From Acidobacteriota bacterium (GTDB lineage: Bacteria; Acidobacteriota; Terriglobia; Terriglobales; Acidobacteriaceae), in contig JAJXYY010000027.1 of NCBI GenBank assembly GCA_021780315.1, positions 11,179-75,178 on the forward strand: a stretch of 64,000 nucleotides of DNA, written 5' to 3'. Within the stretch, counting starts at the first letter, position 1; every line of letters starts with the position of its first letter. Shown here one piece after another: positions 23,343-55,603 of this stretch. The position numbers and the translations under genes were made by a program. The notes under the pieces were generated by a model. It made no database searches. It was not told where the DNA came from and worked only from the letters and a program-made list of their open reading frames with translations.

Positions 23343-25157
23343 ATGAATGAAACGCAGCAATCTACCGGTTCCGGCAAAGCGAAACAGCGAGGTCCATCGG
23401 ACTGGTTTCGCCAGATGAGAGACTCCTCGTCCTTTGCAGCACCGCGCGAAGTCCTGGTCCTGCTCGTAACAACCACCTTCCTGCTGCTCTATGGCCTGAT
23501 TCCCATCTTCGGTGGCGACCAACTGGGTTTGGTCGGCGCAGACGAGCCACGCTACGCACAAATCGCCCGCGAGATGCTGATGGCGCACTCCGCAGCTTGC
23601 CATCAGGTCAACGCCAAAGTAATCCCGCGCAGCCTGCGATCAACGGACCTCCGCGCCTCCTACCACTGCCTCGTAGGAGGCACAGTTACTCCCATCCTCT
23701 ACGGCCAGCCCTGGCTGGAGAAGCCAGCGCTCTACTACTGGAGAGCCATGGGCTTCTTCAAGGAGTTCGGCGTATCCGACTGGTCGGCACGGTTGCCATC
23801 TTCGTCCGCAACCTTTGCCCTCATCTTTCTGATCTTTCTGCACATGAGGCGTTTCCGCCCCGGCGGCCACCTAGATGCCGCTCTAGTCACGGCTTCCTGC
23901 GTCGGCATTGTCAGCTTTGCCCGTGGTGCATCCACCGATATGCAACTGGCGGCACCCTTCTGCATCGGCATGCTGGGGTGGTACGCCTGGTACGAGACCG
24001 GCAAGAAGTTCTGGCTCTTCGATCTCTACTTCTTCGGTGCCGCCGCCACTTTGGCGAAAGGACCAGTAGCACCATTCCTTGCGCTAGCCATTATCCTGCT
24101 TTTCGTTGGTTTACGGAGAGAATGGTCGGCGTTGCGGAGAACCATCTGGCTGCCGGGAGTGATCCTCTACCTGAGCATGGTTCTTCCCTGGTACATCGCA
24201 GTCCAGAGGAAGAATCCATCGTTCTACAGACTGTTTTTTCTGGAGCATAATCTGGAGCGGTTTGCGACAAACCGCTATCAGCACCATCAGCCTATCTGGT
24301 ACTACCTGGCAGTTCTCTTGCTTGCGCTGATGCCTTGGACGGCGATTGCTTTGCGGGCTCTCGTTGATGCAGTCGAGGTATCAATTGCCGAATGGAAAGT
24401 TCGTCACAAGCCCCAACGATATCTCGGGCACACCCGGGCTGGCGATGCCTTTCCCGAGTTTCTGGTTCTTTGGGCATTGTTTCCGATCGTGTTTTTTTCA
24501 TTTTCGGGCTCAAAGCTTCCCGGGTACATCCTACCTTCCATTCCTCCACTAACTATTCTGACCGCCGACTATCTCAACCGCATTCGTCGGGATGGATTGC
24601 CTGAATGGCTGCTCTGGCTGCACGCTTCTATGTGCGCTGTGCTTGTTTTTGTTCTTGTTCTGGCACCGCAACATATGAAGTATGAGACGTTGGTTCCGTC
24701 CATCTCCTGGCTGCTGATTGCACTGATGTCTGCTGCATGCATTGGGGGAGTGGTGTGGTACCTGATCCGCCGCGGTGGAGTGTCCAGTGTTTGTTTTGCA
24801 ACAATGCTGCCAATCTTTGCTGCTCTCATCTTCCTGCTCGGATTCCATGGGAAGGAACTTGATCTCAATTATTCCGCTCGTCCGTTGGCGCAGGAGATTG
24901 CTAGGCAGGCACCCGGGGTCAAGCTGGTTGCTGTGCAGGACGTGAAGCGGGACATGGACTACGGGTTGGCGTTCTATCGCAGCGAGCCTTTGATCCATTA
25001 TGCGAACGACGGTGTTCCGCGCCAGGAGCATTTACTGGTTGTACGCAGTAACGATATGGCAACCCTCAACAAGTGGCTGGCAGGAAGAGTGTACGCACCA
25101 TTGTTCTTGTATGACTCGCAAGGCTTAGAGGTTTATCGCGTCAGTGCGCAGCGGTAA
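23343..25157 (+). CDS. GT39/ArnT-like lipid-linked glycosyltransferase
   Basis: ADEPRYAQIAREM, WLEKPALYYW, LAKGP and HHQPIWYY motifs; multi-TM. Confidence 0.88.
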   Translation: MNETQQSTGSGKAKQRGPSDWFRQMRDSSSFAAPREVLVLLVTTTFLLLYGLIPIFGGDQLGLVGADEPRYAQIAREMLMAHSAACHQVNAKVIPRSLRSTDLRASYHCLVGGTVTPILYGQPWLEKPALYYWRAMGFFKEFGVSDWSARLPSSSATFALIFLIFLHMRRFRPGGHLDAALVTASCVGIVSFARGASTDMQLAAPFCIGMLGWYAWYETGKKFWLFDLYFFGAAATLAKGPVAPFLALAIILLFVGLRREWSALRRTIWLPGVILYLSMVLPWYIAVQRKNPSFYRLFFLEHNLERFATNRYQHHQPIWYYLAVLLLALMPWTAIALRALVDAVEVSIAEWKVRHKPQRYLGHTRAGDAFPEFLVLWALFPIVFFSFSGSKLPGYILPSIPPLTILTADYLNRIRRDGLPEWLLWLHASMCAVLVFVLVLAPQHMKYETLVPSISWLLIALMSAACIGGVVWYLIRRGGVSSVCFATMLPIFAALIFLLGFHGKELDLNYSARPLAQEIARQAPGVKLVAVQDVKRDMDYGLAFYRSEPLIHYANDGVPRQEHLLVVRSNDMATLNKWLAGRVYAPLFLYDSQGLEVYRVSAQR

Positions 25158-25238
25158 CTTAGCTTGCTCTGGTTTCAGTAAACACTGGCAGGCTGGCAGC
25201 AATCCTATAAGCTCGATTGAGACGCCGAACTTAGCTTG

Positions 25239-26222
25239 ATGATCGCTGCCCAACTCGAGATATTAGATCTGCGGCACTTCTCTGCGCATCAGTTGCGGCC
25301 GTTGCTGGAGCGCGAGGCTCGGATGTGGAAGGCACGTCTGCGCTGGGACTATGACAGCTCTGTTGAACTGCTGCTCAAATATCTGGATTCCAGAATCCTG
25401 CCAGGTTTCGTGGCGTTGGATCGTGGACGCGTGAGTGGGTTTACGTTCTGCGTTTACGAAGGCCACAAGGCTGTGGTTGGGGATGCCTTTTCTATTGGGC
25501 AGGATGCAGGCCAGTCCTTGCAGTTTACGAATCGCTTGTTGAGTCACCTGTTGGAGTTGCTGACTCACTCGCCGGATATAGAGCGTATTGAATCGCAGAT
25601 GCTTCTCTACGATGTCGGAGAGATTGAGCAGAGCTTTGTGGCTGCCGGCTTTGCTCTGTATCCGCGGTTGTTCATGGAGTACGATCTAACCGCTCCCATC
25701 GGGTTGGTGATGGAATCTTCAATAAATGATGTGATTATGGATGGGGTTGAGGTGGTGGGGTGGGCTGCGGCGCACTATCAAGCTGCGGCGGAGTTGATCC
25801 ATGCTTCGTATGCGAATCACATCGATGCTTCCATCAACGATCAGTACCGTTCCCTGCATGGGTCGCTGCGTTTTTTGCATAATATTGTTCGCTTCCCCGG
25901 GTGTGGGGTATTTGAGGCTGGGGCATCGTGGGTGCTGCGGGATCGTGTGAGTGGAGCGCTGGTGGGGATGGTGTTGTGTTCGCGGGTGGCGGGGGATGTG
26001 GCTCATATTACCCAGATCTGTATTGCGGAGGAACATCGCGGGCGCGGGTTGGGCAGGGCGTTGCTGCGACACTGTGTTGGGCATTTGGCGCAGGCGGGGT
26101 TCTCTGCGATTACCCTGACGGTGACGGAGCAGAACCAGCCCGCCGTAAGCCTCTACGAGGAACTGGGCTTCTGCACGAGACACCGGTTTCATGCGATGGT
26201 TCTGGACAAGAAGCGAGGCTAG
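25239..26222 (+). CDS. Tandem GNAT-family N-acetyltransferase
   Basis: C-terminal QICIAEEHRGRGLGRALL...NQPAVSLYEELGF acetyl-CoA motifs; the N-terminal half is GNAT-like. Start is TTG 25236 or ATG 25239. Confidence 0.85.
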   Translation: MIAAQLEILDLRHFSAHQLRPLLEREARMWKARLRWDYDSSVELLLKYLDSRILPGFVALDRGRVSGFTFCVYEGHKAVVGDAFSIGQDAGQSLQFTNRLLSHLLELLTHSPDIERIESQMLLYDVGEIEQSFVAAGFALYPRLFMEYDLTAPIGLVMESSINDVIMDGVEVVGWAAAHYQAAAELIHASYANHIDASINDQYRSLHGSLRFLHNIVRFPGCGVFEAGASWVLRDRVSGALVGMVLCSRVAGDVAHITQICIAEEHRGRGLGRALLRHCVGHLAQAGFSAITLTVTEQNQPAVSLYEELGFCTRHRFHAMVLDKKRG

Positions 26223-51007: not shown

Positions 51008-53320
51008 TCATGCGGTGGCCTCGGGGACGCAGGGGTCGCCGCTGGTGTGGCCGTTGGCGGTCATGCGTTGGAAGATGTCTTCGGGGAGGAGAGGGATCTC
51101 GTTGAAGGGGATGCGGGTGGCGTCTTCGATGGCGTTGAGGATGGCGGGTGCGGGGCCGTCCATGGGGAGTTCGCCGATGCCTTTGGCTCCGAAGGGGCCA
51201 TGGATGCTGGGGATTTCTTCGAAGGCGACGTGGATGGGGGGGAGATCGGCGGAGGTGGGCATGATGTAGTTGGTCATCTGGTTGTTGGCCATGTGGCCTT
51301 GTTGCCAGACGCATTTTTCGTAGAGGGCGAAGCCGATTCCCTGAGCGACTCCGCCTTCGATCTGGCCGGCGGCGAGGATGGGGTGGAGGACTTTGCCGAC
51401 CTCCTGGAGGGCGTAGAAGTTGGTGCAGGTGGCGGCGTAGGTGGTGGTGTCGACGGCGACTTCAGCGACGTAGACGGCCCAGGCGTAGGCGGGGTAGGCC
51501 TCGCCTTTGTAGTTGTCGTCGTCCCAGACAATGTCTCCGGGGGACTGGTAGCGGACGCTGGCTTTGAGGGGGCCGTGCTGGGCGAGGTAGGCGAGGGCGG
51601 CGTGGCGGAAGTCGTCGGCGGAGTAGTGGTGGGGCAGGTGGCCGGAGGTAATGAGGGATTGGACGAGGGATTGGGCGGCTCGCTCGACGAGTTTGCCGAC
51701 GATCATGGCGGTGCGGGAGGCGACGGTGGGGCCGGAGTTGGGGACGTGTTTGGTGTCGGGCTGGGCGATGAGGATGAAGTCGTAGGGGAGGTGGAGGGTT
51801 TCGGCGGCGATCTGGCAGAGGATGGTGTTGGTTCCCTGGCCGAACTCGGTGGAGGAGACGAGGATCTGCGGTTGTCCGGTGGGGGTGAGTTCGATTTCAA
51901 CGAGGGAGTTGAGACGGCGCTCGCCGGAGCCGGTGAAGCCGGAGCCGTGGAAGAAGGTGGCGAAGCCGATGCCGCGCTTGATGGGGGAGGTGGGATTTTC
52001 CTTTTGGAAGCGCGCTTGTTTGGCGTGGTAGTCGGACTCGGTGAGGGCGCGGGTGAGGAGGTGCTGCATGTCTACGGTGTCTGGTCCCGATTGGGGGACG
52101 AGTTGGCCGGTGGCGGTGCGGTCGCCGGGGGCGAGGAGGTTGCGGCGGCGGACGTCTTCGGGGGTGATGCCGAGGGCGTGGGCGATGCGGTCCATGTGGC
52201 GCTCGGTGGCGAAGATGGACTGGGGCGCGCCGAAGCCGCGGAAGGCACCGTGGGGCGGGAGGTTGGTGGCGTAGGCTTTGCCGGAGACGCGTAGTGCGGG
52301 CCAGCGGTAAGGGCCGGCGGCGTGGATGGTTCCGCGGGAGAGGACGGTGGCGGAGAGGGTGAGGTAGGCGCCGCCGTCGAGGCAGAAGGCGATGTCTCCG
52401 CCGAGGAGTTTGCCGTCTTTGCTGACGGCGGTGCGGATGCGGGTGCGGCTGGGGTGGCGCTTGGTGGTTGCGGCGAGGTCTTCGGCGCGGTCGTAGCAGA
52501 TTTTGACGGGGTGGCCGGACTTCATGGCGAGCAGGGCGGCGTGGGCTGCGATGACGGAGGGGAAGTCTTCTTTGCCGCCGAAGGCTCCACCGGTCTCGGT
52601 CTGGATGACGCGGCATTGTTCGGCGGGCAGGTTGAAGACGAGTTGGAGGGCGTGGACGACGTAGAAGGGGCACTGCATGGCGCCGCGGACGGTGACACCG
52701 TGGGTGGCGGAGTACTCGGCGATGATGCCGTTGTTTTCGATGTAGAGCTGCTCCTGGGCTCCGGTGCGGTACTCGCCGGTGACGATGTGGTCGGCAGCGG
52801 CGAAGATGGCGTCGAGTTGGGACTCGTTGCCGGAGCGCATGAGGTAGGACTTGAAGAGGTTTTTTTCGGGCGCGTCGGGGTCGCCCCAGATGGCGGGTGC
52901 GTCAGGGGCTTCGGCCTGGTCGATGGTGAAGACGGCGGGGAGGGGATCGTAGGTGATGTGGACGGCGGCGACGGCGGCGGGGAGGACGGCGCGGTCGGGG
53001 TGGGCGAGCAGGAGGATGGGCTCGTTGGGGTGGTTGACGTGGGTGGAGGCGAGGCAGAGGTGGTCTTTGGCGATGTGGACGATGGTGTTTTCGCCGGGGA
53101 CGTCGGCGGCGGTGACGATGGTGAACTCGTGCCAGGGGATGGCGGGATCGAAGGTGATGGAGGTGATGCGTCCGCGGGGGATGGTGGAGCGGACGGTGGC
53201 GCCGAACCACATGTTGGGAAGGGCGATGTCGTCGATGTACTGAGCGCGGCCGAGGACCTTGGCGACGCCCTCCTTGCGGATGGGGGAGGAGCCTACGATA
53301 TGGGTGGTCTGCGCAGACAT
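51008..53320 (-). CDS. Xanthine dehydrogenase-family molybdopterin-binding (large) subunit
   Basis: GGAFGGK, FRGFGAPQ, EFGQG, TVASRT, GQIEGGVAQGIG and GAKGIGE motifs. Confidence 0.95.
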   Translation of the reverse strand: MSAQTTHIVGSSPIRKEGVAKVLGRAQYIDDIALPNMWFGATVRSTIPRGRITSITFDPAIPWHEFTIVTAADVPGENTIVHIAKDHLCLASTHVNHPNEPILLLAHPDRAVLPAAVAAVHITYDPLPAVFTIDQAEAPDAPAIWGDPDAPEKNLFKSYLMRSGNESQLDAIFAAADHIVTGEYRTGAQEQLYIENNGIIAEYSATHGVTVRGAMQCPFYVVHALQLVFNLPAEQCRVIQTETGGAFGGKEDFPSVIAAHAALLAMKSGHPVKICYDRAEDLAATTKRHPSRTRIRTAVSKDGKLLGGDIAFCLDGGAYLTLSATVLSRGTIHAAGPYRWPALRVSGKAYATNLPPHGAFRGFGAPQSIFATERHMDRIAHALGITPEDVRRRNLLAPGDRTATGQLVPQSGPDTVDMQHLLTRALTESDYHAKQARFQKENPTSPIKRGIGFATFFHGSGFTGSGERRLNSLVEIELTPTGQPQILVSSTEFGQGTNTILCQIAAETLHLPYDFILIAQPDTKHVPNSGPTVASRTAMIVGKLVERAAQSLVQSLITSGHLPHHYSADDFRHAALAYLAQHGPLKASVRYQSPGDIVWDDDNYKGEAYPAYAWAVYVAEVAVDTTTYAATCTNFYALQEVGKVLHPILAAGQIEGGVAQGIGFALYEKCVWQQGHMANNQMTNYIMPTSADLPPIHVAFEEIPSIHGPFGAKGIGELPMDGPAPAILNAIEDATRIPFNEIPLLPEDIFQRMTANGHTSGDPCVPEATA

Positions 53321-53442
53321 AAAAACAAGTCTAATTCAACGACCAGACTAGTTTCCTGATAGACCTTTCCTTGTATGCAGAAGCAGCACACGATAGAGTT
53401 ACGGCTTTCATCAGTAAGTTTTTATTATATTTTCTATGTTGA

Positions 53443-53769
53443 TCAGTATCTTGATACGTAATAGCTCAAGAGTAGAGCACAAAGACACAGGCGTGAAGCA
53501 TTTTTATTAAGCCGATCCGATTCCATTTTCCATACTTGCGTGGGCATAGATTCTGAATTTAGCGAATCTAGTTTTGTAGCCAACCGCAGTAGTGTTATCT
53601 GGAAGAGAAGATAAAAAAACCAAATCATCACAATGAAGAGCACTAAGATGCTTAAATGAAGGGCGTCTTTAGTGTCAGATCTACGATATGTGTGGACGCT
53701 ATTTACGAGATCGACCACAGATATTAAGCTCACCCACCACACAGATGACCGAGAATATAGCTTGGACAT
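53443..53769 (-). CDS. Small low-GC membrane protein (2-3 TM)
   Basis: 108-aa ORF with hydrophobic segments, in the roughly 40% GC islet, preceded by TGG-TAACGT. Confidence 0.65.
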   Translation of the reverse strand: MSKLYSRSSVWWVSLISVVDLVNSVHTYRRSDTKDALHLSILVLFIVMIWFFYLLFQITLLRLATKLDSLNSESMPTQVWKMESDRLNKNASRLCLCALLLSYYVSRY

Positions 53770-53799
53770 AAAGCCTCTGCTTAAAGCAAGTTAGAGATT

Positions 53800-53815
53800 A
53801 CGTTACCACGGGATG
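53800..53815 (-). promoter_or_regulatory. Extended -10 promoter motif shared by the two islet genes (copy 1)
   Basis: CATCCCGTGG-TAACGT on the minus strand. Confidence 0.5.
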
Positions 53816-53818
53816 TAA

Positions 53819-53860
53819 GAATTTTAGTCAGCTTTGATTAAGCTAAGCTGACTAAAATTC
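53819..53860. terminator. Perfect 16-bp inverted repeat between the islet genes
   Basis: GAATTTTAGTCAGCTT-N10-AAGCTGACTAAAATTC. Confidence 0.5.
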
Positions 53861-53892
53861 ATAGTATTGAGGAGATAAGACAGAAACTGTAG

Positions 53893-54603
53893 TTAGCAAC
53901 CTTCCCACCATAACGCAACAGTAGCGATCGCAGCCGCAGGTATATTCCCCGTCAGCATGGCGATAACGTCCAAGCCGATCAGAGCTGCACAATAAGGAGT
54001 GTGCTTATAGAACATTGTTTGTTGTGCTTCTCGCTCGGCCTGCTGTTGCTTTGCAGTATTGTGCAGCTTCGTAACAAGTTCATTCATAGCATCGGTTGAA
54101 ATGATCTGTAATCCGCTTTTAAGAACCTGCAGTTTTAGTAGTTCTTTATCCGAGTCATCAAAACGAAGCAGTGAGTCTTTGGTTGATTCAATATCCAGAG
54201 TGGGTAGCCCCAGCATGGAATAGCGCCTTAGTGAGTCATCGACATCTTGCTCACTTAAGCTGGTTTGCAGTAAGCCTTGGCTAAGTTGGCTATCAACAAG
54301 GGCATAATATCCAGTTTCGGCAAGGTTCCCAATATAGGTTCCATAAGCCACCTGCAAGGTGGCAACATGAGCATGCGTCAACTGCTTCGAATTTATCGCT
54401 GTGCCTAAAGCAGTGAGGCTGCTGTAAGTACTTTTGACAACTGAAGGACTAAGCTTCCCTAAGCATTCCTTGAACGAATTAGGATTCGAGTCTTGTCCGA
54501 ACGCTGACCGCGAAAGGCCGAATATTGAGCAGGGGAAAGCCGCTGCGCACGGAACGAACGATATCAACTGTCTTCTATTGATAGGTGCCATCGGTGTCTC
54601 CAT
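53893..54603 (-). CDS. Low-GC hypothetical protein with a Tat-like signal and hydrophobic Cys-flanked C-terminus
   Basis: INRRQLI...SAFG-QD; C-terminus YCAALIGLDVIAMLTGNIPAAAIATVALWWEGC. Confidence 0.75.
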   Translation of the reverse strand: METPMAPINRRQLISFVPCAAAFPCSIFGLSRSAFGQDSNPNSFKECLGKLSPSVVKSTYSSLTALGTAINSKQLTHAHVATLQVAYGTYIGNLAETGYYALVDSQLSQGLLQTSLSEQDVDDSLRRYSMLGLPTLDIESTKDSLLRFDDSDKELLKLQVLKSGLQIISTDAMNELVTKLHNTAKQQQAEREAQQTMFYKHTPYCAALIGLDVIAMLTGNIPAAAIATVALWWEGC

Positions 54604-54616
54604 TAGTAATCAACGA

Positions 54617-54645
54617 AGCGTACCACGGGATGCCTATTGTGTCTA
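54617..54645 (-). promoter_or_regulatory. Sigma70 promoter of the islet precursor gene (shared motif copy 2)
   Basis: TAGACA-N17-TACGCT containing CATCCCGTGG on the minus strand. Confidence 0.55.
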
Positions 54646-54769
54646 CGGATTATTAAGATATTAGTTATTGCCAGTGTTACTGGCTTGTATTTCGACAAGT
54701 TGGCGCACCTTACAGTAGTTTCTTGTCCAATTCGTAAATATGGATCACAGTTTCAAGTGAAAGGTTTTC

Positions 54770-55603
54770 GTGACTGAGATGATCGATGCGCACCATCATC
54801 TGTGGCGGTATTCGTCGGCGGAGTATGGGTGGCTGGATGAGGGGATGCGTGCGCTGCGGCGAGATTTTCTGCCGGATGATCTGGAGCGTGTGCTGGCTTC
54901 GGCGGGGGTGGATGGCGCGGTGACGGTGCAGGCGCGGCAGACGGTGGAGGAGACGCGGTGGCTGCTGGATTTGGCGGCAGAGTGTGGGGCGATGCGAGGG
55001 GTGGTGGGGTGGGCACCGATTGCGTCGGCTGGATTTGCGGGAGTGCTGGAGGAGTTGGCGGAGAGGCCGAAGCTGAAGGGGCTGCGGCATGTGATTCAGG
55101 CAGAGGCAGATGAGCATTACATTCTGCGGGAGGATTTCAATGCGGGGATTCGGCGGCTGCGGGGGAGTGGGTTGGTGTACGAGATTCTGATCTTTGAGCG
55201 GCAGTTGGCGCAGACGATCCAGTTTGTGGATGCCCATGCGGAGCAGGTGATGGTGCTGGATCATGTGGCGAAGCCGCGGATTCGGGAGGGGTTGATGGAG
55301 CCGTGGGCGAGGCAGATGCGGGAGTTGGCGATGCGGGAGAATGTGTGGTGCAAGGTGAGCGGGATGGTGACGGAGGCGGAGTGGTCGGGGTGGTCGCTGG
55401 AGACGCTGCGGCCGTATCTGGATGTGGTGGTGGAGGCGTTCGGGCCGGGGCGGCTGATGGCTGGTTCGGACTGGCCGGTGTGCCTGGTGGCGACGGAGTA
55501 TGCGCGGTGGTTTGAGGTGCTGCGGGAGTACTTTGCGGGGTACAGTGCGGAGGAGCAGGCGGCGGTGTTTGGTGGGACGGCGGTGGCGGTGTATGGGCTG
55601 TAG
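54770..55603 (+). CDS. Amidohydrolase-family sugar lactonase (L-fucono/L-galactono-1,5-lactonase-like)
   Basis: IDAHHHLW, GLRH, VLDHVAKP, CKVSG and MAGSDWPVC motifs. Confidence 0.9.
   Translation: MTEMIDAHHHLWRYSSAEYGWLDEGMRALRRDFLPDDLERVLASAGVDGAVTVQARQTVEETRWLLDLAAECGAMRGVVGWAPIASAGFAGVLEELAERPKLKGLRHVIQAEADEHYILREDFNAGIRRLRGSGLVYEILIFERQLAQTIQFVDAHAEQVMVLDHVAKPRIREGLMEPWARQMRELAMRENVWCKVSGMVTEAEWSGWSLETLRPYLDVVVEAFGPGRLMAGSDWPVCLVATEYARWFEVLREYFAGYSAEEQAAVFGGTAVAVYGL

What the first reader, a model, noticed from the sequence alone, without database searches (positions are those of the whole stretch)
53330..54750. Low-GC two-gene islet resembling an undescribed Tat-exported peptide-toxin precursor with an immunity protein
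The islet is about 40% GC (53521-53580: 23/60; 54061-54120: 24/60) in a much more GC-rich background. Gene 1 (236 aa) has a twin-arginine-like signal (NRRQLI...AFG-Q), a soluble helical pro-region, a polar Q/E-rich linker and a terminal 33-residue hydrophobic segment bounded by two Cys (CAALIGLDVIAMLTGNIPAAAIATVALWWEGC). Gene 2 (108 aa) is a small 2-3 TM protein directly downstream. Tat leader, pro-domain and C-terminal hydrophobic Cys peptide is the architecture of the halocin C8 precursor; this is an analogy only and no sequence homology is claimed. Small downstream membrane proteins are typical immunity factors. An alternative is a Tat substrate with a plain C-terminal membrane anchor.
Basis: partly seen in the sequence, partly recalled or inferred. 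Interest (0 to 1): 0.68.

Follow-up and report, generated by a model that had tools for sequence, protein, structure and literature searches.

The report
Orphan secreted hairpin protein plus partner
The most AT-rich 1.4 kb of this soil acidobacterium's genome is a foreign two-gene cassette, an exported helical protein ending in a cysteine-clamped greasy hairpin plus a small three-helix membrane protein, that matches no known family and looks most like an unknown toxin/immunity or membrane-complex module.

Summary
Window 53330-54760 is the lowest-GC 1.2 kb of the 4.06 Mb genome (0.43 against 0.60). GC3 is 0.43-0.46 against 0.79-0.88 in neighbouring genes, and the islet lacks the strong strand skew of its flanks.

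Both minus-strand genes are real, with dN/dS of 0.16 and 0.19 against a sister lineage. They travel together in all seven lineages found, which where the host is known are Acidobacteriaceae. They sit at three or more different chromosomal sites and are always below host GC. About 1% of genomes in the family carry them.

Gene 1 (232 aa, not 236) has these parts:
- a twin-arginine signal in 6 of 7 lineages;
- an invariant Gln at the cleavage site;
- a confidently predicted eight-helix domain with no PDB fold match;
- a disordered polar linker;
- a helix-turn-helix tail closed by two invariant Cys, the second being the last residue.

Gene 2 is a 3-TM protein found only next to gene 1. Pfam, NCBIfam, PADLOC, PHROGs, PDB, phage and plasmid searches gave nothing.

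My best reading (0.38) is an exported membrane-inserting toxin with a cognate membrane immunity protein. A non-toxic hairpin-anchored periplasmic complex is nearly as likely (0.33). The halocin-C8-style "cleaved peptide" detail is untested, and membership of that family fails.

Function stays inferred.

The parts
53330..54760 (.). AT-rich, skew-free islet lying between the xanthine-dehydrogenase-type molybdopterin subunit gene (51008-53320, minus strand) and an Amidohydro_2 gene (54770-55603, plus strand)
   Evidence: lowest-GC 1.2 kb of the genome. GC is 0.44 against 0.65 in the flanks, and skew is +0.04 against +0.42.
53893..54591 (-). Gene 1, 232 aa.
   Evidence: for the start codon; for dN/dS 0.16; for the only homologues, P0002, P0003 and P0005.
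54496..54591 (-). Twin-arginine-type signal peptide of 32 residues: N-R-R-Q-L-I, a weakly hydrophobic h-region, a basic residue in the c-region, and cleavage at AFG|Q
   Evidence: the RR motif is present in 6 of 7 lineages and Gln at +1 is invariant; h-region hydropathy is 1.15-2.2 in the RR forms and 2.62 in the one Sec-like form. TatC is present.
54034..54495 (-). Globular all-helical domain (eight helices) carrying the conserved motifs K-L-S-P-S-V, G-N-x-A-E-T-G-Y/F and L-G-L-P
   Evidence: AF2 pLDDT 85.4, pTM 0.73; no Foldseek match in the PDB (best E 2.2); conservation.
54001..54045 (-). Polar Q/E/S-rich linker, variable in length between lineages and predicted to be disordered
   Evidence: pLDDT below 50 at residues 188-201; indels at this position.
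53896..53991 (-). C-terminal hydrophobic helix-turn-helix of 32 residues, with a T-G-N-x-P turn. It is bounded by two invariant Cys, and the second Cys is the last residue of the protein.
   Evidence: helices at 203-218 and 221-234; the Cys pair is present in 7 of 7 lineages. The tail is 31-32 residues in five lineages and 41-43 in two.
53816..53863 (-). Perfect 16-bp stem-loop between the two genes. It has no U-tract, so it is not a canonical terminator.
   Evidence: I1.: -33.3 kcal/mol, z -4.6. A comparable stem occurs in L035 (z -2.6), but the stem is degraded in the sister lineage L055 (z -0.7).
53804..53815 (-). 12-mer CATCCCGTGGTA lying 34 nt upstream of the gene 2 start. A second exact copy lies at 54621-54632, 29 nt upstream of the gene 1 start.
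   Evidence: these are the only two copies in 64 kb; 5 of 100 shuffles give two or more matches. Each copy has 2 mismatches in L055. This may be a shared promoter or operator element, but the evidence is weak.
54621..54632 (-). Second copy of the 12-mer, upstream of gene 1
53443..53769 (-). Gene 2, a 108-aa membrane protein with three hydrophobic segments. Gene callers often miss it.
   Evidence: for dN/dS 0.19; for homologues directly downstream of gene 1 in every lineage; for the absence of orphan copies.

Best explanation
This is a self-contained, horizontally circulating two-gene envelope module.

Gene 1. The product is exported by the Tat pathway and cleaved before an invariant Gln. In the periplasm it consists of a new eight-helix globular domain, a flexible polar linker, and a hydrophobic helix-turn-helix. 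The two ends of that hairpin are tied by a disulfide between an invariant Cys and the C-terminal Cys.

Gene 2. The product is a 3-TM inner-membrane protein that packs against the hairpin inside the membrane.

Most likely role. The hairpin is the membrane-inserting element of a bacteriocin-like toxin, and gene 2 is its cognate immunity protein. A toxin that passes through the producer's own periplasm makes immunity obligatory, which would explain the strict linkage of the two genes.

Shown: foreign composition, real genes under constraint, conserved architecture, strict linkage, patchy distribution at different chromosomal sites.

Inferred: Tat use, the disulfide, the hairpin-partner contact, toxicity and immunity.
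For: Distribution and composition:
- Gene 1 and gene 2 are adjacent in 7 of 7 lineages. No other gene is shared between loci.
- The flanking genes differ between loci (xanthine dehydrogenase and Amidohydro_2 in the window and L055; methyltransferase and MiaB; LytTR regulator and VKOR; proline-dehydrogenase-like and glycosidase-like).
- Cassette GC is below host GC in every locus, at 0.41-0.55 against 0.61-0.65.
- The cassette is rare: 2 of 401 genomes in each of the order and phylum draws, and 3 of 401 in the family draw, own genome included. This pattern is typical of self-sufficient conflict modules.

Protein features:
- A secreted protein with a hydrophobic helical hairpin next to a small polytopic membrane protein is the layout of pore-forming colicins with their 3-TM immunity proteins (established knowledge).
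- The invariant Gln at +1 could form pyroglutamate, and the C-terminus is locked by a disulfide. Both suggest a protein built for an extracytoplasmic, protease-rich setting.
- TatC and VKOR are present in the genome.
- The hairpins are rich in small-xxx-small and Gly-zipper spacing.

Co-variation and decay:
- Tails of 31-32 residues go with partners of 108-113 aa that have short first and third hydrophobic segments. Tails of 41-43 residues go with partners of 131-132 aa that have longer segments.
- In the Edaphobacter aggregans MAG lineage, a 1-nt insertion cuts the RR signal off gene 1 while gene 2 stays intact. The same frameshift sequence is present in all four records read (L038, L039, L041, L057), which come from two metagenomes; L041 and L057 are the same MAG contig as L038. 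Losing the toxin's export signal first while keeping the immunity gene is the expected order of decay.
Against: - Nothing tests toxicity, processing or protection.
- Selection on both genes is purifying, with no sign of diversifying change. Only 3 conservative changes occur in the hairpin against L055.
- No orphan immunity genes were found.
- There is no receptor-binding or translocation domain, no release or secretion gene in the cassette, and no evident route across the outer membrane.
- No sequence or fold similarity to any pore-former was found. Foldseek's best E is 0.55 for the full-length model, and ClyA/Nhe/Hbl entries appear only at E 1-4 with TM below 0.2.
- The globular domain is as conserved as the tail and folds confidently without it. 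This, together with the flexible linker, fits an anchored protein equally well.
- In five lineages the hairpin helices are only about 12 residues long, too short to span a bilayer.
- One lineage (G065) has a Sec-type signal, so Tat export is not obligatory.
- The length co-variation rests on just two clades.
Confidence: 0.38

Rival explanations
1. The pair is a non-toxic, hairpin-anchored periplasmic protein with its membrane partner. Gene 1 is held at the outer face of the inner membrane by its disulfide-closed hairpin. Together with the 3-TM gene 2 product it forms a stable accessory envelope complex. Possible roles are exclusion of a phage or foreign toxin, or binding or sensing of a periplasmic ligand through the conserved helical domain.
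For: - Tat-dependent tail-anchored proteins that pair with integral membrane subunits are an established class (PMC10924467).
- A confident independent globular fold joined by a disordered linker to a terminal hydrophobic element is the usual design of anchored proteins.
- The globular domain carries the strongest sequence motifs.
- Gene 2 never occurs alone, as expected for an obligate subunit.
- Selection on both genes is purifying.
- Hairpin length and partner segment lengths vary together.
Against: - Known Tat tail anchors are single helices followed by a cytoplasmic tail. Here the tail is a helix-turn-helix that ends on a conserved Cys, with nothing after it.
- In five lineages the helices are too short to span the membrane.
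- A housekeeping-type complex would not be expected to stay AT-rich, move between chromosomal sites and occur in only about 1% of the family.
- No cofactor-binding motif or cytoplasmic domain suggests a redox or signalling role.
- PADLOC and PHROGs give no defence or exclusion match.
Confidence: 0.33
2. Gene 1 is a precursor whose 32-residue disulfide-stapled tail is cut off after Tat export and acts as a free hydrophobic peptide toxin, in the manner of halocin C8. The helical part serves only as a pro-domain or carrier, and gene 2 is the immunity protein.
For: - A variable disordered linker is followed by a conserved F/Y-Y-x-H-S/T-x-Y-C junction just before the tail, which could be a processing site.
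- A disulfide running to the very last residue staples C-terminal hairpins in some peptide bacteriocins of the pediocin PA-1 type. This is recalled from memory and was not tested here.
- Halocin C8 shows that a Tat-exported precursor can release a C-terminal peptide.
Against: - The 'pro-domain' is at least as conserved as the tail and has a confident fold of its own.
- No protease or peptide exporter is linked in any of the loci.
- Halocin C8 models do not match.
- In halocin C8 the immunity function lies in the N-terminal part of the same protein, not in a separate membrane gene.
Confidence: 0.12
3. The ORFs are chance reading frames in an AT-rich non-coding or decaying insert and have no function.
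For: - Both products are annotated at best as hypothetical, and gene callers often skip gene 2.
- No family matches in any library.
Against: - dN/dS is 0.16 and 0.19, with dS 0.23-0.31, against a sister lineage.
- Both ORFs stay intact and adjacent at 20-42% protein identity across seven lineages.
- The structure prediction for the globular domain is confident.
Confidence: 0.02

Closest known systems
Pore-forming colicins (E1/Ia/K type) with their 3-TM immunity proteins of about 110 aa
   Same: Both have an all-helical toxin module of about 200 residues whose membrane-inserting element is a hydrophobic helical hairpin near the C-terminus. Both sit next to a small three-helix inner-membrane protein that would act on the hairpin within the membrane. 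Both are carried as a compact unit that moves horizontally.
   Different: - There is no sequence match to the colicin Pfam model and no fold match.
- The hairpin here is terminal, closed by a disulfide and separated from the domain by a disordered linker, not buried between helices.
- There are no receptor-binding or translocation domains and no lysis gene.
- The protein has an export signal, whereas colicins have none.
- The two genes lie on the same strand.
- Gene 2 does not match the colicin immunity families.
[quoted passage not shown]
   Same: Both have a twin-arginine signal, a globular periplasmic domain and a C-terminal hydrophobic element. Both are encoded next to an integral membrane partner.
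   Different: The known examples have one transmembrane helix followed by a cytoplasmic tail, and most carry Fe-S clusters and pair with cytochromes. Here the tail is a helix-turn-helix ending on a conserved Cys, there is no cofactor motif, one lineage uses a Sec-type signal, and the genes form a rare AT-rich mobile cassette.
Halocin C8 precursor ProC8 (Natrinema); TIGR04449 / PF22862
   Same: Both have a Tat signal, a larger N-terminal part, and a Cys-containing C-terminal part that is the candidate active element.
   Different: - The family models do not match.
- Halocin C8 is a 76-residue peptide. As recalled from memory, it is not markedly hydrophobic and has ten Cys.
- Its immunity protein is the N-terminal part of the same precursor.
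- No cleavage has been shown here.
Pediocin-like (class IIa) bacteriocins whose C-terminal hairpin is closed by a disulfide to the last residue (recalled from memory)
   Same: Both have a membrane-inserting C-terminal hairpin stapled by a disulfide that involves the terminal Cys.
   Different: Those are 40-50-residue peptides of Gram-positive bacteria with double-glycine leaders, ABC exporters and cytosolic immunity proteins. There is no homology, and this comparison is an analogy only.

Membership tests
Halocin C8 / ProC8 | Match to the halocin C8 domain model (TIGR04449) or to Hac8_like_N (PF22862) | tested here: not met
   hmmscan of gene 1 and of all five aligned homologues against Pfam-A and NCBIfam found neither model.
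Halocin C8 / ProC8 | Tat-type signal peptide on the precursor | tested here: met
   An RR motif with a weakly hydrophobic h-region is present in 6 of 7 lineages, and TatC is present. This is motif-level evidence only; the Tat-signal HMMs gave no hit.
Halocin C8 / ProC8 | Proteolytic release of the C-terminal peptide, with immunity provided by the N-terminal part of the same polypeptide | not testable with these tools
   This needs proteomics and genetics. Here the candidate immunity function sits in a separate 3-TM gene.
Pore-forming colicin plus immunity protein | Colicin pore-forming domain, by sequence (PF01024) or by its 10-helix fold | tested here: not met
   There is no Pfam hit. No colicin appears among the Foldseek PDB matches listed for the full-length or domain models, and the best E-values are 0.55 and 2.2.
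Pore-forming colicin plus immunity protein | Hydrophobic helical hairpin buried inside the soluble helical bundle | tested here: inconclusive
   A hairpin is present (helices 203-218 and 221-234). However, it follows a linker with pLDDT below 50, and the domain folds at pLDDT 85 without it. Model coordinates could not be inspected.
Pore-forming colicin plus immunity protein | Adjacent small polytopic (3-4 TM) inner-membrane immunity gene | tested here: met
   Gene 2 has three hydrophobic segments, is 108-132 aa long and lies adjacent in 7 of 7 lineages. This is met at the level of architecture only; there is no match to the colicin immunity families.
Pore-forming colicin plus immunity protein | N-terminal translocation domain and central receptor-binding domain | tested here: not met
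   The mature protein is only about 200 residues and consists of one globular domain plus the tail.
Tat-dependent tail-anchored proteins | Twin-arginine signal peptide | tested here: met
   Met at motif level. One lineage (G065) has a Sec-like signal instead.
Tat-dependent tail-anchored proteins | A single C-terminal transmembrane helix with a short cytoplasmic tail | tested here: not met
   The tail is predicted as two helices with a T-G-N-x-P (or G-F-G-P, or A-P-P-P) turn. The helices are about 12 residues each in five lineages. No residue follows the terminal Cys, and conserved Cys residues sit at both ends.
Known anti-phage defence or phage protein families | Match to a PADLOC or PHROGs model, or a homologue in phage, plasmid or viral-contig collections | tested here: not met
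   nothing below E 0.001.

The most novel reading that the evidence does not exclude
This is a previously unseen class of envelope conflict module confined to Acidobacteriaceae. A Tat-exported protein uses a disulfide-closed terminal helical hairpin to attack the inner membrane from the periplasmic side, and a dedicated 3-TM protein neutralises it by capturing that hairpin within the bilayer. The pair persists as a 1.4 kb AT-rich cassette that moves between chromosomes without any recognisable mobility gene.
Probability: 0.3. Interest if true: 0.7.

Novelty: new variant of a known kind. Interest (0 to 1): 0.5.

Why it matters
Almost nothing is known about how Acidobacteria, one of the most abundant soil phyla, compete or defend their envelope. 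This is a clean, minimal and experimentally tractable pair of two small genes.

Its architecture is sharply conserved and unusual: a Tat signal, a helical domain with no PDB fold match, and a hydrophobic hairpin closed by a disulfide to the very last residue. No family library or structure collection searched here recognises it.

If it is a toxin/immunity pair, it would add a new membrane-targeting fold and a new export logic. In that logic the toxin passes through the producer's own periplasm, which makes immunity obligatory. If it is a structural complex, it would extend the Tat tail-anchor class from single helices to disulfide-closed hairpins.

Either way, the persistent AT-richness of a family that seems restricted to GC-rich hosts raises a question. 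What is the reservoir or vehicle of such cassettes?

Tried and rejected
Family and structure searches:
- Pfam, NCBIfam, PADLOC and PHROGs scans of both proteins and their homologues found nothing significant.
- PDB sequence-profile searches with both alignments gave a best E of 0.59.
- Foldseek against the PDB and BFVD, using the full-length model and the high-confidence domain model, gave no match with E at or below 0.001. The alpha-pore-forming toxin entries (ClyA, NheA, HblL1, AhlB, PaxB) have TM scores below 0.2, and I rejected them as noise.
- P0004, a 1112-aa repeat protein, was rejected as a low-complexity artefact.

Searches for more copies:
- Phage records, plasmid records and IMG/VR contigs held no homologue of gene 1; IMG/VR was also searched for gene 2 and held none. 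The idea of an identifiable phage or plasmid vehicle therefore found no support.
- Genome-contig and metagenome scans added no new lineage beyond those already found.

Insertion site:
- No clean empty site was found. The nearest species in the genus share only 66-74% identity in the flanking amidohydrolase and mostly lack the xanthine dehydrogenase neighbour. One (G035) has a sedolisin-like peptidase gene in the gap.
- No tRNA, Rfam family, terminal repeat or target duplication marks the islet borders.

Small sequence features:
- The intergenic stem-loop was considered as a terminator, but it lacks a U-tract and is not conserved in the sister lineage.
- The 12-mer repeat upstream of both genes is only marginally beyond chance and is imperfectly conserved.
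- The VKOR gene next to the G321 cassette was considered as a linked disulfide factor and rejected. It has host GC and is not linked in the other loci.

Full report
OBSERVATION

The islet is real and extreme. Across 53250-54750 the GC content is 0.38-0.49, while both flanks run at 0.60-0.72. I scanned the whole 4.06 Mb assembly in 1.2 kb windows (mean 0.601, sd 0.040). This is the single lowest-GC segment, at 0.428-0.434, and only 0.007% of windows are as low. GC3 is 0.46 and 0.43 for the two islet genes, against 0.79-0.88 for the three neighbouring genes. The host DNA here also has a very strong strand bias, with GC skew of about +0.4. The cassette has none, at +0.04. That is a second, independent mark of foreign or recent DNA.

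There are three small corrections.
- Gene 1 most likely starts at the second ATG (54591), giving 232 aa. In a sister lineage the upstream ATG reads ATT, and GGAG/AGGA precedes the second ATG.
- The Cys-to-Cys tail is 32 residues, not 33.
- Gene 2 has three hydrophobic segments.

ARE THE GENES REAL?

Yes. Ten metagenome or MAG contigs of the same species carry the 1.6 kb region with no difference at all, at the same site. A sister lineage (L055) has about 92% protein identity for gene 1 and carries the cassette at the same site. It gives dN/dS of 0.16 for gene 1 and 0.19 for gene 2, at dS 0.23-0.31.

RELATIVES

The family is tiny.
- A word-indexed search of 5.8 billion proteins found only the query itself.
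- An exhaustive phmmer search over 1.84 billion representatives found three true homologues: P0002 at 38% identity, P0003 at 42% and P0005 at 28%. It also returned one spurious repeat protein.
- Whole-genome profile searches added two distant members, in G321 and G065.

Counting the window and L055, that makes seven lineages. Where the host is known, all are Acidobacteriaceae. One is a MAG labelled Edaphobacter aggregans.

Frequency is about 1%. The order draw and the phylum draw each gave 2 of 401 genomes, and the family draw gave 3 of 401 with the gene 2 profile. All counts include the window's own genome. None of 60 near relatives has either gene.

THE PAIR IS A UNIT

In every lineage a small 3-TM gene follows gene 1 on the same strand. 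It is 108-113 aa in five lineages (one of them cut off by the contig end) and 131-132 aa in the two distant ones. Gene callers often missed it.

Profile searches with gene 2 found it only beside gene 1, with no orphan copies.

No third gene is shared between loci, and the flanking genes differ:
- xanthine dehydrogenase and Amidohydro_2 in the window and L055;
- methyltransferase and MiaB in the Edaphobacter MAG;
- a LytTR regulator and VKOR in G321;
- a proline-dehydrogenase-like gene and a glycosidase-like gene in G065.

In each locus the cassette is below host GC, at 0.41-0.55 against 0.61-0.65. No homologue turned up in low-GC organisms, phage records, plasmid records or viral contigs. So the family appears to circulate within GC-rich hosts while staying AT-rich, and its vehicle is unknown.

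ANATOMY OF GENE 1

Signal peptide. Six of seven lineages begin with (N/D/T)-R-R-x-(L/I/P)-(L/I). This is followed by a weakly hydrophobic h-region (12-residue hydropathy maximum 1.15-2.2), often by a basic residue in the c-region, and then by an A/G|Q cleavage site. The Gln at +1 is invariant. The seventh lineage, G065, has no RR and a more hydrophobic h-region (2.62), so it looks Sec-type. TatC is present in the genome. The Tat-signal HMMs did not fire, so Tat use rests on the motif alone.

Globular part. AlphaFold2 with seven sequences gives an eight-helix domain at pLDDT 85.4 and pTM 0.73 for residues 37-190. It carries the strongest motifs of the family: K-L-S-P-S-V, G-N-x-A-E-T-G-Y/F and L-G-L-P. 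Foldseek finds nothing convincing in the PDB, with a best E of 2.2.

Linker. This is a Q/E/S-rich stretch of variable length. It has pLDDT below 50 in the full-length model.

Tail. After a conserved aromatic-H-S/T-x-Y-C junction come two predicted helices joined by a T-G-N-x-P turn (G-F-G-P or A-P-P-P in the distant members). The tail ends on a Cys that is the last residue in all seven lineages. The first Cys is also present in all seven. The tail is 31-32 residues in five lineages and 41-43 in two. It is rich in small-xxx-small spacing.

Topology argument. Nothing follows the terminal Cys, and conserved Cys residues sit at both ends. A hairpin with both ends on the periplasmic side, closed by a disulfide, is therefore the economical reading. 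A VKOR-type oxidase is present in the genome. A single-span tail anchor would put the two Cys on opposite sides of the membrane.

GENE 2

It has three hydrophobic segments, and the middle one is long, at about 30 residues. Two lineages carry a C-x8-C pair in the loop after the second segment, which hints that this loop faces the periplasm. In the short-tail lineages the first and third hydrophobic segments are 15-20 residues long. In the long-tail lineages they are 22-27. However, it rests on only two clades, which amounts to a single evolutionary event.

OTHER FEATURES

- A perfect 16-bp stem-loop lies between the genes (z -4.6). A similar stem is seen in one other lineage, but it has no U-tract and is degraded in the sister lineage.
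- An exact 12-mer precedes both genes. It is marginally beyond chance and imperfectly conserved.
- In the Edaphobacter lineage a 1-nt insertion in an A-run separates the RR start from the rest of gene 1, while gene 2 is intact. The same frameshift sequence is present in all four records read, which come from two metagenomes.

WHAT IT IS NOT

There are no matches in Pfam, NCBIfam, PADLOC, PHROGs or PDB sequence profiles.
- Halocin C8 membership fails on its defining models, and in halocin C8 the immunity part is in the same polypeptide.
- Colicin pore-domain membership fails by sequence and by fold.
- The Tat tail-anchor class (PMC10924467) shares the signal, the globular domain and the membrane partner. 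It is defined by a single C-terminal helix, which is not what is seen here.

INTERPRETATION

The structural reading is fairly secure as an inference: an exported helical protein with a tethered, disulfide-closed hydrophobic hairpin, plus a cognate 3-TM partner. The biological role is not secure.

I put a toxin/immunity module first, at 0.38, for these reasons:
- the strict two-gene linkage;
- the patchy distribution at several different chromosomal sites in persistently AT-rich islets;
- the hairpin as a classic membrane-insertion device beside a small polytopic protein;
- termini that look protected against proteases;
- one lineage that lost the export signal but kept gene 2.

A non-toxic hairpin-anchored complex is close behind, at 0.33. 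It is favoured by the well-conserved, independently folding globular domain, the flexible linker, purifying selection, the absence of orphan gene 2 copies, and the lack of any route across the outer membrane.

A non-functional artefact is excluded by the conservation data.

LIMITS

No complex prediction was possible, and I had no access to model coordinates to see whether the hairpin docks on the domain. The alignments are shallow, at 5-7 sequences.

Noticed in passing
window 1-64000 (switch near 24000-26000): The host DNA has an unusually strong GC skew: about -0.2 before roughly 24 kb and +0.3 to +0.5 after it. The skew holds whichever strand the genes are on, and it shapes amino-acid composition. 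Here it matters only because the islet lacks the skew.
   Followed up: partly
L038:5946-6010 (the same sequence is in L039, L041 and L057): In the Edaphobacter aggregans MAG lineage, a 1-nt insertion in an A-run puts the GTG-N-R-R-H-I-L-K start of gene 1 out of frame with the rest of the signal peptide. The called protein therefore starts at an internal Met and has no export signal. Gene 2 (113 aa, uncalled) is intact.
   Followed up: partly
G000 C12:50281-53755: A run of arginine-biosynthesis-like genes (argininosuccinate synthase-like, carbamoyltransferase-like and aminotransferase-like, judged from their N-terminal sequences) sits at GC 0.47-0.48 in a genome of GC 0.60. It is one of only eight low-GC regions in the genome.
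   Followed up: no
G000 C34:305400-314300: This is the second most AT-rich part of the genome (GC 0.45-0.51). It encodes multi-TM polymerase-like, flippase-like and chain-length-determinant-like proteins, so it is probably a surface-polysaccharide cluster.
   Followed up: no
L043:2448-2897 (G321): A VKOR-family gene lies immediately upstream of the G321 cassette on the same strand. It has host GC and is not linked in the other lineages, so the adjacency is probably coincidental.
   Followed up: partly
L034:5275-6975 (G035): In one species of the same genus, the gap between the xanthine-dehydrogenase gene and the Amidohydro_2 gene holds a 566-aa sedolisin-like peptidase gene instead of the islet. 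This intergenic position therefore seems to accept different inserts.
   Followed up: no
window 53443-53769 and its counterparts in L038, L039 and L045-L054: Public gene calls skip the 108-113-aa membrane gene in most assemblies. Protein-database searches therefore under-report this family.
   Followed up: yes
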